Positions 1 through 6,000 of a stretch of 64,000 nucleotides of DNA are shown here, one piece after another. Source of the DNA: Nitrospirales bacterium (lineage in GTDB: Bacteria; Nitrospirota; Nitrospiria; Nitrospirales; UBA8639); NCBI GenBank assembly GCA_963422365.1, contig OY729426.1:1-64000 (forward strand). Direction: 5' to 3'. A program made the position numbers. Each line of letters begins with the position of its first letter. The stretch's first letter is position 1.

Positions 1-3000
1 AAGCCTGGGAAAGACCCTTGGCCAAGATTTGATGCAAGGAATGGTCACCCTGCCCCTTATCCATTTATTGCCGTGTTTGCCGGATGAAGACCAACAAATC
101 CTGGTCTCCAAAATTGGAAACGACGCCATTGAAGAGGATGATTTACTCCAGATCACGGCACGCATGCATCAGCATGGATCGTTGCGATACACCAAGGCCC
201 GTTCCCAGGAATACATCGATGCCGCGCTTGTGAATCTCACCGCCTTTGAAGATTCCACGGCCAAACGTGCCCTCATCGTCGTAGCCGATTACATGGTCAA
301 CCGCGACTGCTAAGGCTTTTCAAGTCGTAAGCGTCATTTTTTCTCGTCGTGCGGCTAGAAAGACGAGCCCTATGAGAATCCACATGATTTCGCGAATCCG
401 ACGGATTACGGCAAAGGTGATCCCTGTCACCTCGCTGTACCCTAATGCCGTCAATAAAAAAAGATAGCCTCCTTCTTGCGCCCCCAGTCTTGATCAATAC
501 CGCAATCGCGGCGATAGACAAAGACGACAACCACCCGACCTCCGCGCCCAGGAAATATAGAATCGCATACACTTCAAACAACTCCGTCAACCATGCGACA
601 AAGTATACCCCCATTGACAACAAAAACGTCTGGCGGCGCTGTTGATAAAAATTTCGAATCGTCCGATCCAACTCCAATAACTGCGACCGATGGTTCTCCA
701 GCCACTGCGACCGAATCCTGCACGTTTCGGCAACCGTTAACAGCCCTGCTCCGATTCCATAGTGCTGGACGACGAGAAACAAGAAGACTCCAAACCCAAG
801 CATGCCCACGCCGACGAAAGCGATCAAGGCGCTGTACGGTCCTCCCCCTACGAGCCACAACATCAGGACTAACCCCAACAACATAAACAGGATCTGTGCA
901 ATGGACATGATTGTCTTGGCTGTCACCACAGAGGCTAACCCTTCGACCATGGGGACCTCATACCGTGTGAGCAGATAGGCCTTCATGGGTTCACCGCCAA
1001 GCATAGCCGTCGGGGTTGTCACGTTAATGGCTTCGCCCGCCATTCTCACCATAAACAACCGGACAAACCCCACTCGACTCGCCCACTGACCCAAGGTCAG
1101 GAACCATCCATAGGTCTCGAGAAGATACACCACCAGAAGCGGGGTGAGAATAATGCAGAAAGAGACAACCCCAACGTGTTCAACCGTCTCCCATACTCGA
1201 GAGGGGCCGATATGCCAGATCAACCCACCCAGAACACCAAGACCCACGGCAAGGAGGACACACCGAATCATGGGATTAACTTAGCATGAAAAGCGAAGAG
1301 GGAAGGCATGATGCGTAAAGAAATTTGTTGAACCTTACGCCCCATGTCACTGTGTTCGGGATAACGCTTAAAGAGCGCGTCAGGATTGATGAGGGGGAAA
1401 AGCTCGACGAAGGCTCCACGCCATCATGACGGCAAAAAAACTTGCCCCCACTGCGCCGAGCCAGAGAAACCAAGGCAGCACTCCCAAACAGGCCGACACC
1501 GCCACTACAATCGAAAAATCGCGATTGGCCACATGGTCGAGAATAAAATCAAAACGGGTTCGACAGGCTCGACTCAGACGTCGCCAATTCAAGGCTTTGG
1601 CTTTTAGGGACCTTATCCGATTGACACCCCATAGAGAAAACCCTGTAGAGACAACGGCAAGGGCTCCTAATAGCAGTGGGAGGGAGGGAAAGTCCCAAGG
1701 ATTTTCTAGATACGTGCCCCAGGCAATTCCCGCAAACACCGCCATATGCACAATATTGTCTGACACAAGATCTAATGCTTGGCCCAACCGAGATTCTGCA
1801 AAGGTGAGGCGCGCCACTTCTCCATCACAACAATCGATAAGCACTGCGAATTGAAACAGGAGGGCCCCAATCATGCCCAGATGATACGAGCCTCTGGCAA
1901 AACACGCCGCACCAATGAGGCCAATCACCAACGACAAAAGAGTAATGGCATTTGGCGAAAATCCCAGTTTGATAAAGAATCGGCTCAAAAGCCGGGAGAA
2001 CTTCCGATTCACATAGCGGTCGATGAACCCATCCATGGAACCTTTCACGTCTTGCAACGAACGAAACAAGATGTGTTCCGCTTTAGAGAGCCCACCGGGC
2101 TCTCTGACGTCTTGATATCCATGGGACGAGGCAGACAGGGTTTGCAGGACTTCTTCCGCAGCTGCCTGCTCCAACGCCAACCGAACCGGACTCGTTTCCA
2201 GGGTGCTCCATGCACTAGATATCCCTAATAACCGAGCCGGCAAGACAACCAGGTCCTCCACAGGAGCAAGCCCCGTGCCTGCAACCTCAACAGGGTCCAC
2301 CTTGGAGCTCTGCTGGTCACAAAATACGACTCGAGGCCTGTGTCCGCTCGTGTGAGAATCAGTTCGCATCACCACACGAGGATTCGCGCTCCACCCGGGT
2401 TCACCCGGCCGACCGACCGCCACCACGGCTCGTCCCTCTTTCCCTTCTTCTCTGAAAGATTCGAGCAACGACGGAGGAAACACCATATGACAACTGAGAA
2501 TGAAACATGATCCCTTCATCTCACTCGCCAAGGCTTCCCACGTCTGAGGATCCGACGGAGGAAATTCACGAATAGGAAGCCAGCGGATCGCCGCTTGGAT
2601 ACGATCATCGCCATCAATCAACGAGCGAAGCCGTTGTTCCTCCTGACCCACTAATGTCAGAATTTGTGAGATCCCTGCATCCTGAAGGGTGAAAACGGTT
2701 CGTTGAAAGAGCGTAAGCCCACCAACGTGGGTCAAGGCCCCAACAGCAGATTGATCAGACGCCCCAACTAAATCAAATACACCTGACGAGGCTAAAACGA
2801 TGGCCGTGTCGATCATGCCGATTTCAGGTTTATTGAGTGTTCCGTCCATAGGTGCGGGGTTCACCTTCGCACGACTATGCTTGGCAAGAAATGGGCCTTA
2901 CCCTCTAACATGTTCTCCCAACCGGGGCAAAATGTCTTTTCGTGCCCGTTCCAGATCTTCAGGGAAGTCAATCTCAATCCAAGGCAGGCCCCCAATTTTC

Positions 3001-6000
3001 TCAACCCCGACCGGGATGTCGCGAAAAAAGTCTTCCAACGCATCTTCATATTCTATATCCAGCAGCCCCTGATTCACACGCATCTCTACCGATCGGAGCA
3101 AACGAGGCACGGCAGCATGCTCCACGCGTAAAAATCCCACGCCTTCGCCCACCAGGTCATACTCTCCCTGCACGTACTTGGACAACATCACCACCCGTCC
3201 CTCCCGTACCACGACCATGCATTCCTCTGTTTGTTGCGTCACCGTTTCATCCATCAACAGGGAATTGGCATACGGAGAAGTGAACAATCGCTCAAGGATA
3301 GCGGGATGAAACAGGACGTCGGCATCCATGATCACCACATCATCATCCAATGCTTGTCGGGCCACCCACAAAGAGCCAAGGCTTCCACGTTCAAATTGGC
3401 TATTGACCAAGAACCTCACATCCAATGGGGAGGGGTATGAAGCCACCGCCTCACGAATGAATTCTTGTTTGTACCCGACCACCAGACAGATTTGGGTCAC
3501 GCTCAGATCAAGCAGCGCATCGAAATAGCGATACAGAAGGGGCCGCTTTCCAATCTCAATCAAACATTTAGGGTGATGGGTCAGAATATGAAGCCGACTC
3601 CCACGCCCTGCAGCCAAAATGACCGCTTTCATGTCCCCCTGTTCTCCTGCTGCAAGACTTCCTCAAACGCCCCCAGGAAATCTTCGATGTGTTGTGCCTG
3701 TAAAGCGCCCATATTCGCCACGCGGAAAATCTTCGACTCTAAATGTCCTTGGCCGGCATAGATAACATAGCCGCGCTCTTTCAGACGGTCATGGAGGACG
3801 GGATACGTCAGTCCTTCCGGCAAATAAAAGGCTGTCAACGAATTCGACTGATGCTCCGCAGGAAGCACGGCTTGCACCCCAAGGGTTTCCATCCGTTCCC
3901 GAATCAGAGAGGCCATCCGTCCATATCGCTTGATCCGATTGCCAACTCCTTCTTCCAAGAGTTCCGATAAGGCTTCACCGAATGCGGCATACAACTGAAT
4001 AGCCGGCGTAAAGGGAAGACGGCTTTTTTCTTGTGTCTCGTAATAATTGCCCAGGTTCAAATACCACGAGCGCTTGGGGTACTTCACCACATTTTCCATA
4101 AAGCCTTTTCGAACCAGAACAAACGAAACTCCTGGGAATCCCTGAATACACTTTCCCGCGGTCCCAGCCACCATATACATATGACGACCGGCAATATCCA
4201 AGGATTCCCCTCCTAACCCACTGACAGAATCCAGTACAAAGACCCCCCCACGGCTATCGACGTGTTCTGCAATTTCGTGAACGGGATTGAGAAGCCCCAG
4301 AGTCGTTTCATGATGAACCATGACCACCGCATGAGCCGACGGCTGTTGCTTCAGAGATTTAAGAATTGTTTCCGGATCGGGCTGGGTATCCCACTTACAT
4401 TTGATTTCAGCAATCCCAAGGCGTTGTGTCGCAACGATTGAAGAAATCCGTTCTCCATACACCCCGTTATTGACATGAACCAGGCGCTTCCCTGCCGGCA
4501 AACACGACATGATGGAGGCCTCTACCGCAGCCGTACCCGAGCCAGTCAGAAGAATCGCGGTGTAATCCGATTCCGCACCCGGAACAAAGGCTTCCAGAAG
4601 TTTCCGACGAATCTTGCCAATCAATTCCGCGCATTCGGATTCCCGATGACAGAGATCCGGACCTATCAAGGCATTTCGGACGCGATCTGAGACATTGACC
4701 GGACCTGGATTGAGCAGTATCATGAGCTTGACGTTATCCTTTTTTCCTTAGTTATGACATCCATTGAGACCCAAATGAGCTAGCCGTGACCCACGGCTGC
4801 ACGAAAACGTTTTGTCATATCAGGGGGATCGAGGGCCACTCGATCGGCATCTTCAATCTGCTCGTTGACTTTAATCAGCAAAAAATTCGGGCCCTCGCTG
4901 TTCAGCATGTCTTTAAATTCATAGACAATATCCTCTCGTTCCCAAACCCGTTCGACAGTGGCGTAGCCGGCAGCCTTGGCTACGTGGTCCAGCCGAACGA
5001 ACCGCGAATAGGAAGGCTGATTGCCGGTTGTCCCGTACACCTCGTTATCAAAGACCACATGAGTCAGGTTTTTCGGGTGTAATGCTCCGATAGTGGCCAA
5101 TGTACCCATCCCCATGAGCACGTTCCCATCACCATCGAACACGACGACTGGCTGTTCCGGTTTGGCCAAAGCAAGACCCAATCCAATTGAGGCAGCGACC
5201 CCCATCGACCCAATCATATAAAAATTGCCTGCCCGGTCCTGGATTTTTTGGGCTTCCCGTGAGGGGAACCCATTACAAATGATCACAGGTTGGTCAGACA
5301 GAACCTCAAAGAGCGCTTGAATCGCCTGGGCTCTGCTCTGCATCACGCCTTCTTCAGGTCGCAAACTCACTGACTCTCGCCCTTTCTTAAGGTTGGATGG
5401 TTTTCACCACACCCTTTTTCAAAAACAACGCAACAGGGATTCGTTGCTCCATAAAGGTTTGCGCGGTCCATTGAAGATCATCCGCCAGGGTTTCCTGGGA
5501 TAACGTTCGATGAGGAATCCGAATCGTCTCCATCAACTGCGGCATGGTTTGCCCCATCACCACGTGTTCCGGGGCATCTTTCCCTTCAAAACCTCTCCAA
5601 GAAATAATCAGCAAGCAAGGGATCCTGTAGATCAAATGAAGTGACATCAGCACATTCAAGGCATTCCCCAGCCCTGAATTCTGCATAAGAACGACAGGGA
5701 TTTTTCCACCCAAAAACGCCCCTGCGGCCATGGCAACCGCCTCATCTTCACGCACCGACGGTGTATAGAGCCGGCGTTCACTTAACACTTCAATGATCCC
5801 GCCTAAAATCGTATCTGGCACACCGGTAAAAAAATCAAATCCAATATCCCTGAGTGCTTTCACAAAATCATCACTGTCGATCACGGCCATGACATCGTTC
5901 CTGAATGTGTTTAAAAAACATGCCTTCCTGGAAAAAGAATGTCTTTCCAAAAGTAGAGGGATTGGGGAAGCAAGAAGATCCACTCCGTGTCAAAACAAAA

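What a model noticed while it worked through the whole genome (the two positions that open the first line are those of the whole stretch)
297..5890. A complete 2-aminoethylphosphonate (phosphonolipid) pathway is a core trait of Nitrospirales
An operon of split phosphonopyruvate decarboxylase, AEP transaminase, PntC-type cytidylyltransferase, CDP-alcohol phosphatidyltransferase and a flippase-like protein, together with the PEP mutase-cytidylyltransferase fusion at 2321328-2322962, gives the whole route to an AEP-headed lipid. It is not an accessory island but is kept in most of the order, which makes these widespread nitrifiers likely producers of C-P compounds.
Evidence so far: Annotation rows incl. 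equivalog aepX and the EDK...NS motif. PEP mutase in 30 of 31 order genomes, 71-96% in 22. Table floors: neighbouring pairs of the operon in 61-83% of 511 order genomes. Paper searches: no Nitrospira mention in the phosphonate surveys seen or the two genome papers.
(Added by a program. Inside this text positions count along the whole contig: contig position 1 is position 1 of the stretch shown here. "Call 12" and the like, gene names such as g00115 and contig names such as C1 are that model's own, and its searches are not shown. The text may have been shortened before it was handed on; [...] marks where a part breaks off. The agent that wrote the report below was given it as the finding of a first reader that could run no searches.)

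Follow-up and report, generated by a model that had tools for sequence, protein, structure and literature searches.

The report
Nitrospirales aminoethylphosphonate lipid pathway, swappable mutase
Most members of this order of nitrifying bacteria carry the genes to make a carbon-phosphorus head group and probably attach it to a membrane lipid; the pathway type is already predicted elsewhere, but its first enzyme comes in two interchangeable forms, one of which standard surveys filter out.

Summary
The operon is real: six genes, - strand, 5890->320 (split Ppd, AEP transaminase, PntC-like cytidylyltransferase, CDP-alcohol phosphotransferase, HpnL-like protein). A canonical PepM fusion lies unlinked. 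The frameshift and the 'two copies' are assembly artefacts. In 251 order genomes: decarboxylase beta 246, CDP-transferase 237, oxygenase 186; PepM in 1 of 151 other phylum genomes. 'PEP mutase in almost all' merges two enzymes: canonical PepM (167) and an EDNxxPKRCS variant (67), together in only 2. The variant is basal in the order and heads the same operon in other phyla. One clade (6 genomes) lacks mutase, CDP-transferase and oxygenase, and its transaminase lost the PLP lysine (5 of 5 examined). So the trait is ancestral and near-core, not universal. No lipid has been detected; DAG is the likeliest acceptor (inferred). This scan reported the cluster and the variant mutase before on other genomes; a 2023 paper notes pepM in Nitrospirota. 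New variant of a known kind; interest 0.58.

The parts
6038..6067 (-). sigma-70-like promoter candidate about 150 nt upstream of ppdA
   Evidence: 11 of 12 consensus matches; consensus only, count in region not above shuffles
5387..5890 (-). phosphonopyruvate decarboxylase alpha half (ppdA), 167 aa
   Evidence: PF02776; TIGR03297 133 bits on positions 1-156, TIGR03845 115.9 bits, both under cut-off; 40% to Mycetohabitans AepY N-half
4780..5343 (-). phosphonopyruvate decarboxylase beta half (ppdB), 187 aa
   Evidence: PF02775; TIGR03846 186 bits, TIGR03297 172 bits, both under cut-off; best solved relative 9IZ3 putative Ppd beta subunit; 246 of 251 order genomes
3629..4723 (-). AEP aminotransferase (aepZ), 364 aa, PLP lysine present
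   Evidence: TIGR03301 331.8 bits; the top five solved matches are AEP transaminases; 40% to Mycetohabitans AEPT, shared PFTP motif
2898..3632 (-). PntC-like cytidylyltransferase, 244 aa
   Evidence: PF12804; best solved relative Treponema PntC 6PD1, then LicC; 36% to the Mycetohabitans cluster PntC
1380..2864 (-). CDP-alcohol phosphotransferase fused behind an NTP-transferase-fold domain that lacks the GxGxR loop, 494 aa
   Evidence: PF01066; DxxDGxxAR..GxxxDxxxD in 66 of 67 homologues; model pLDDT 88.7, best fold match IPCT-DIPPS 4MND; 237 of 251 genomes
320..1271 (-). HpnL-like / LPG_synthase_TM membrane protein, 325 aa in the correct (end-of-contig) copy; the window copy has a 26-nt assembly gap at 488
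   Evidence: PF03706 128.6 bits, TIGR00374 over cut-off; gap shown to be an error. The two unlinked parts (PepM fusion, 2OG oxygenase) lie outside the window and are given under the observation check

Best explanation
A Kennedy-type pathway for a phosphonate head group. PepM turns PEP into phosphonopyruvate. The two-subunit ThDP decarboxylase pulls the reaction to phosphonoacetaldehyde. AepZ transaminates this to AEP. The stand-alone PntC makes CMP-AEP. The membrane CDP-alcohol phosphotransferase moves the AEP group onto a membrane alcohol, most likely diacylglycerol, giving the phosphono analogue of PE. The HpnL-like protein flips or presents it. Where present, as in this genome, the 2OG-Fe(II) oxygenase probably adds a 1-hydroxyl. 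The pathway was present in the ancestor of the order with the EDNxxPKRCS mutase beside the operon; this genome's lineage lost that gene and uses an unlinked canonical PepM. Shown here: genes, motifs, synteny, co-presence and co-loss. Inferred by homology: each reaction. Inferred only: acceptor, flipping, hydroxylation, and mutase activity of the variant (about 0.8). AEP synthesis about 0.85; lipid acceptor given that about 0.75.
For: All 7 genes of a Burkholderiales_CDP-OH cluster (Mycetohabitans pBRH01) have homologues in G000 at 29-55% identity. Closest solved relatives are phosphonate enzymes. Gene order is kept in 11 of 11 loci and 38 of 40 (one ends at a contig edge, one has pntC moved beside pepM). 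G000 has no other Ppd, whereas 8 relatives keep a fused canonical Ppd beside pepM. Co-loss: 6 genomes lack over-cut-off or variant mutase, CDP-transferase and oxygenase; PntC is missing in 4 of 4 of them tested; AepZ lacks the PLP lysine in 5 of 5 examined. The two mutases co-occur in 2 genomes against about 45 expected if independent (kin are not independent). The variant keeps W44, D58, D85, E114, K120, R159 and H190 in 128 of 128 locus ORFs, some fetched twice. It has a Ppd-like gene within the fetched flanks in 39 of 54 non-Nitrospirales loci, none with a canonical motif. Five such genomes have no over-cut-off PepM.
Against: No product or activity has been measured. AepZ and both Ppd halves score under their curated cut-offs, and ppdB scores slightly higher on sulfopyruvate decarboxylase. 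The CDP-transferase is closest to IPCT-DIPPS and AF2299, a group that includes enzymes with soluble acceptors. A Psd gene exists in 5 of 5 genomes tested, so the cell does not need this route for a PE-like lipid. The loss clade keeps intact ppdA, ppdB and aepZ frames at 61-73% identity, which this reading does not explain. 15 of 54 outside loci show no adjacent Ppd. The variant replaces N122, the residue to which most authors credit the mutase/hydrolase difference (PMC7916636).
Confidence: 0.65

Rival explanations
1. AEP and CMP-AEP are made, but the acceptor is not DAG: a hopanoid polyol, glycolipid or cell-surface glycan carries the phosphonate.
For: Squalene-hopene cyclase in 5 of 5 genomes. 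The last operon gene is HpnL-like. hpnM-mlaA-hpnN lie about 5 kb from pepM in G000. The variant mutase lies near FPP synthase and HpnA in L049, and HpnA is in locus L130.
Against: No hpnM or hpnN hit in the other pepM loci examined. The loss clade keeps shc, which is neutral at best. HpnL scores under the TIGR03476 cut-off. Ceramide is unlikely: no serine palmitoyltransferase found with a BioF query in G000, and the second hits in G114 and G216 are Kbl.
Confidence: 0.17
2. The CDP-transferase joins CMP-AEP to a soluble alcohol, as IPCT/DIPPS does, giving a small phosphonate ester or osmolyte and not a lipid.
For: Same two-domain architecture and best fold match to IPCT-DIPPS 4MND (TM 0.64/0.76); best sequence matches AF2299 and 4MND.
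Against: A flippase-like membrane gene follows it in 39 of 40 loci, the exception ending at a contig edge. The homologous Burkholderiales cluster is predicted to make a lipid. PIP synthases, which use lipid substrates, are also among the top fold matches.
Confidence: 0.1
3. The operon core is not for phosphonates. The split decarboxylase and transaminase act on sulfopyruvate (ComDE-like, towards taurine) or on phosphohydroxypyruvate (towards phosphoethanolamine), and the variant enzyme is a hydrolase or lyase.
For: ppdB scores 186 bits on TIGR03846 against 172 on TIGR03297. The trio persists without PepM in 5 of 5 loss-clade loci. The variant loop resembles the KxC loop of methylisocitrate-lyase-like proteins and scores close on the PPH model.
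Against: The persisting AepZ has lost its PLP lysine. No cysteate synthase over cut-off in 5 of 5 genomes. A sulfonate cannot be CMP-activated by a PntC/LicC-type enzyme (established chemistry). Canonical PepM substitutes for the variant. No PPH model passes its cut-off.
Confidence: 0.08

Closest known systems
'Burkholderiales_CDP-OH' ppm gene-cluster families = Group 1 predicted phosphonolipids (Li and Horsman, bioRxiv 10.1101/2021.04.07.438883, section 12 read; Yu et al. 2013 only as cited there)
   Same: Homologues of all seven core genes: Ppm-PntC fusion, Ppd, AEPT, second PntC, 2OG-Fe(II) oxygenase, CDP-alcohol transferase, LPG-synthase-domain protein. The product is uncharacterised there too.
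   Different: Here the genes lie in three loci. Ppd is split in two. The CDP-transferase carries an extra NTP-transferase-fold domain (494 against about 230 aa). The oxygenase is optional (5 of 37 other genomes of this genus, 0 of 21 in families f3 and f4). About a quarter of the order uses a non-canonical mutase.
Canonical PEP mutase (TIGR02320; Mytilus 1M1B, 5UNC) and phosphonopyruvate hydrolase (TIGR02321, 2DUA)
   Same: The G000 enzyme is canonical. The variant's best solved match is PepM 5UNC, then PPH; Mg- and phosphonate-binding residues are kept.
   Different: Variant loop EDNxxPKRCS: K116N, T121R, N122C, also L48F; 265-276 bits, under both cut-offs.
Treponema denticola PntC-AEPT (6PD1; PMC6697681, passages read) and the Lic/Kennedy CDP-head-group logic
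   Same: Best solved match of the 244-aa protein; CMP activation of the head group.
   Different: Separate genes here; substrate not tested.
Archaeoglobus IPCT-DIPPS (4MND) and AF2299
   Same: NTP-transferase-fold domain fused to a CDP-alcohol phosphotransferase.
   Different: 17% identity; the N-terminal domain lacks the GxGxR loop; acceptor unknown.

Membership tests
PEP mutase (G000 enzyme) | EDK(X5)NS motif and TIGR02320 cut-off | tested here: met
   EDKLFPKTNS; 385 bits over 319.55
PEP mutase (EDNxxPKRCS variant in relatives) | EDK(X5)NS motif and TIGR02320 cut-off | tested here: not met
   K to N and N to C; 265-276 bits
PEP mutase (EDNxxPKRCS variant in relatives) | Mg and phosphoryl ligands D58, D85, D87, E114, R159, H190, S123 | tested here: met
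   128 of 128 for D58, D85, E114, R159, H190; D87 118 of 128; S123 126 of 128 (roles from PMC7916636)
PEP mutase (either form) | PEP to phosphonopyruvate activity | not testable with these tools
   needs an enzyme assay
Burkholderiales_CDP-OH / Group 1 cluster | seven-gene core present | tested here: met
   7 of 7 homologues in G000
Burkholderiales_CDP-OH / Group 1 cluster | core clustered around ppm, with single-chain Ppd | tested here: not met
   three loci; Ppd split
Burkholderiales_CDP-OH / Group 1 cluster | phosphonolipid product | not testable with these tools
   never characterised even for the family
Phosphonopyruvate decarboxylase (TIGR03297) | curated score, single chain | tested here: inconclusive
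   halves score 133 and 172 against 312.5; the sulfopyruvate models are also under cut-off; a split putative Ppd exists in PDB 9IZ3
AEP aminotransferase (TIGR03301) | curated score; PLP lysine | tested here: inconclusive
   331.8 against 360.8, best of 11 families; lysine present
CDP-alcohol phosphotransferase | D-xx-DG-xx-AR...G-xxx-D-xxx-D motif (recalled) and PF01066 | tested here: met
PntC cytidylyltransferase | AEP specificity over phosphocholine | not testable with these tools
   closer to PntC (E 5e-18) than LicC (E 1.5e-11) by sequence only
'Core trait of Nitrospirales' | present in every lineage | tested here: not met
   232 of 251 with either mutase, 237 of 251 with the CDP-transferase; 6 genomes lack both and the oxygenase

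The most novel reading that the evidence does not exclude
The EDNxxPKRCS enzymes are a second, early-branching class of PEP mutase with a cysteine lid, spread over at least six phyla and removed by motif filters. They and canonical PepM have replaced each other repeatedly in Nitrospirales. These abundant nitrifiers then build a (1-hydroxy-)aminoethylphosphonate membrane lipid, are an overlooked source of environmental phosphonate, and offer cultured strains in which the long-predicted Group 1 phosphonolipid can be identified.
Probability: 0.45. Interest if true: 0.8.

Novelty: new variant of a known kind. Interest (0 to 1): 0.58.

Why it matters
Who makes the phosphonates found in water and soil, and what the commonest predicted bacterial phosphonolipid cluster makes, are both open (Li and Horsman state that no lipid has been characterised from it). 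An order-wide pathway in nitrite oxidisers and comammox bacteria gives harmless cultured hosts and a possible lipid marker for the order. Natural controls exist: genomes with and without the oxygenase, with either mutase, and a clade that lost the route. If the variant is a mutase, censuses that require EDK(X5)NS undercount producers: Rice et al. removed 22 fused proteins lacking the motif. Acker et al. allow two mismatches only beside a TIGR03297 gene, a cut-off the split Ppd halves of G000 do not reach.

Tried and rejected
Two genomic copies: rejected, terminal assembly overlap. hpnL and queF frameshifts: rejected as errors of the window copy. Cysteate synthase route: no over-cut-off hit in 5 of 5. 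Ceramide acceptor: no SPT found with a BioF query in G000; second hits in two relatives are Kbl; the G026 second hit was not classified. Linkage of pepM to hpnM/hpnN: seen in G000 only. A replacement for PE synthesis: Psd present in 5 of 5. Recurrent extra neighbours of the variant outside the order: mostly antisense frames or lineage-specific genes. Expression: no RNA holder listed. Run X12 is only guessed to be RNA; 5 of its 6 short pieces carry A- or T-rich loose ends on the side expected for tails of the sense strand (3 in ppdA/ppdB, 2 in + strand genes), but it is one study at low depth with no silent control, so it is not counted. Raw-read run X18 laid no reads. Terminator scan: nothing above chance. 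Paper searches with no order-wide statement in the listings: 0 papers; 2, listings only; 1; 0; lipid papers; one opened, no 'phosphon' mention. Yu et al. 2013 is not held; its supplement and those of the bioRxiv papers were not seen and may list Nitrospira genes. The PepM tree puts the variant as a basal grade, but with weak support.
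Full report
Observation. Six genes run on the - strand from 5890 to 320 with short gaps: ppdA, ppdB, aepZ, a PF12804 nucleotidyltransferase, a 494-aa CDP-alcohol phosphotransferase and an LPG_synthase_TM/HpnL-like protein. A PepM-nucleotidyltransferase fusion with EDKLFPKTNS lies at contig 2321328-2322962 and passes TIGR02320. The contig repeats its first 58 kb at its end, so there is one operon, not two. The window copy lacks 26 nt at 488 and one T at 6459; the end copy and the contigs of runs X3 and X5 carry these letters, so hpnL and queF are intact. Those runs may include the source sample.

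Identity of the genes. AepZ and both Ppd halves fall under their curated cut-offs, and ppdB scores slightly better on sulfopyruvate decarboxylase. The best solved relatives are nevertheless phosphonate enzymes: a putative Ppd beta subunit 9IZ3, Treponema PntC and AEP transaminases. The CDP-transferase keeps its signature motif in 66 of 67 homologues. Its model (pLDDT 88.7) matches IPCT-DIPPS best: an NTP-transferase fold without the GxGxR loop, in front of the membrane domain. The top-ranked plasmid match of this protein lies in a Mycetohabitans cluster of seven phosphonate and lipid genes. That gene set is the Burkholderiales_CDP-OH core of Li and Horsman, predicted to give a 1-hydroxy phosphonate lipid never characterised.

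Distribution. I searched 251 order genomes of at least 85% completeness, drawn from a larger group; 38 belong to G000's genus. ppdB was found in 246, the CDP-transferase in 237 and the oxygenase in 186 (f1 62 of 97, f2 123 of 132, f3 and f4 0 of 21; only 5 of 37 other genomes of G000's genus). Gene order is complete in 11 of 11 loci and 38 of 40; these were picked from listed hits, not at random. Outside the order, 1 of 151 phylum genomes has a PepM-like match at E 1e-50 or better.

Two mutases. TIGR02320 passes its cut-off in 167 of 251 genomes. A second fusion, 33% identical to the first, with the loop EDNxxPKRCS, is in 67 of 251. Reading the two tables together, only G147 and G011 hold both, so 232 hold at least one; about 45 double carriers would be expected if independent, but kin are not independent. 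In f2 genomes the variant lies divergently next to ppdA. On a tree of PpdA+PpdB+AepZ from 63 chosen loci, the variant occupies the basal branches and the label changes 9 times, one of them the loss described below. Canonical copies are of at least two origins: a 71-83% group that splits roughly along host families, and a 52-54% group. Eight canonical loci keep a fused canonical Ppd beside pepM. G054 and G071 read pepM-ppd-akr where G000 reads pepM-akr, and G000 has no other Ppd, so the split enzyme is its only candidate for phosphonopyruvate. Repeated transfer and reciprocal loss from an ancestor with both genes both fit; either implies redundancy.

The variant beyond the order. Of these, 54 are outside Nitrospirales by record title (Planctomycetota, myxobacteria including Sorangium cellulosum So ce56 and Minicystis rosea, Acidobacteriota, Actinomycetota, Binatia, others). 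39 of 54 have a Ppd-like gene in the flanks, 24 an AepZ, 20 a CDP-transferase, none a canonical motif. Five of these genomes have no over-cut-off PepM. The variant keeps the metal and phosphoryl ligands but has Cys at N122. PMC7916636 reports that most authors credit that position for the mutase/hydrolase difference, while doubting it. I put mutase activity at about 0.8; it is not shown. With the loop masked, the variant forms a grade between methylisocitrate-lyase-like outgroups and the canonical clade, with weak support.

A natural knock-out. Six genomes of genera g21, g29 and g30 (97-100% complete) have neither mutase, no CDP-transferase and no oxygenase; PntC is missing in 4 of 4 tested. 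The five placed on the tree form one clade (support 1.0), so this is one event. They keep ppdA-ppdB-aepZ as open frames, but AepZ lacks the PLP lysine in 5 of 5 (the motif was read by pattern in 4, and in the alignment for 3; L093 was not read and is assumed from its sister L092 only if counted, so strictly 4 of 4 read). All 81 other homologues in which the motif could be read have the lysine, and 9 could not be read. This ties the genes into one pathway. Why the relics persist is unexplained.

Acceptor. Ceramide is unlikely in G000. Psd is present, so PE can be made otherwise. Hopanoid genes are present and sometimes near, but not consistently. DAG is the default by analogy with Kennedy-type transferases (established knowledge); a hopanoid, glycolipid or soluble alcohol is not excluded.

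Literature. PMC10734540 (passages) says Nitrospirota possess pepM in lake metagenomes. The main texts of Li and Horsman, PMC6697681, PMC12723261, PMC9381506 and Acker et al. have no 'Nitrospir' hit; four of them state that they use the EDK(X5)NS filter. PMC10579370 has no 'phosphon' hit. Searches gave no order-wide statement. Yu 2013 and all supplements were not seen. Earlier notes of this scan report the same cluster and the variant mutase on other Nitrospira genomes; I reached both before reading them. The short texts shown do not mention the unlinked oxygenase, the loss clade or the order-wide counts.

Correction to the counts above and in the other fields: where '5 of 5' is given for the lost PLP lysine, the motif was read in 4 of the 5 loss-clade loci and lacked the lysine in all 4; the fifth could not be read by the pattern.

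Verdict. Interest 0.58.

Noticed in passing
window 1-58333 and contig 2437343-2495695: Untrimmed terminal overlap of a circular assembly; the window copy carries small indel errors (488, 6459).
   Followed up: yes
window 10271-24250 and on to about 43800: A 4659-aa - strand ORF and further DNA made of about 300-nt repeats; it looks like a filamentous-haemagglutinin-type adhesin (label recalled, not scanned).
   Followed up: no
window 6184-6617: queF (preQ1 synthase) divergent from the operon; this position recurs in many f1 loci.
   Followed up: partly
contig 2327935-2332196: hpnM, mlaA and hpnN hopanoid-transport genes about 5 kb from pepM; not seen beside other pepM loci.
   Followed up: partly
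contig 2317712-2321236: A 1174-aa ORF with an NPPY motif, like a restriction-modification methyltransferase (recalled), directly upstream of pepM; possibly foreign DNA.
   Followed up: no
L092-L096 (G026, G182, G128, G249, G112): ppdA-ppdB-aepZ kept as open frames after loss of the rest; AepZ lacks its PLP lysine in the 4 loci where the motif could be read. Possible pseudo-enzymes with another role.
   Followed up: partly
L011 (G218:C41): A second canonical pepM (54% to G000) with a 2OG oxygenase homologue directly beside it.
   Followed up: partly
L004 (G142:C5): A second PepM with loop EDKKGLKRNS and an N-terminal extension; a separate phosphonate locus.
   Followed up: no
L049 (G003) and L130: Variant mutase near FPP synthase and HpnA (L049); HpnA in the same locus as the operon (L130).
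   Followed up: partly
P0121-P0270: Further loop variants among distant relatives (EDN..PKRNS, EDN..PKTNS, EDS..PKRCS, EDQ..PKRCG), suggesting a continuum beyond the textbook motif.
   Followed up: partly
L117, L133, L134, L152, L158, L162: Binatia carry the variant fusion with no Ppd in the fetched flanks; the rest of their pathway was not located.
   Followed up: no
contig 2122101-2122871: DUF6445 gene divergent from the oxygenase; this pairing recurs in most f1 loci printed.
   Followed up: partly
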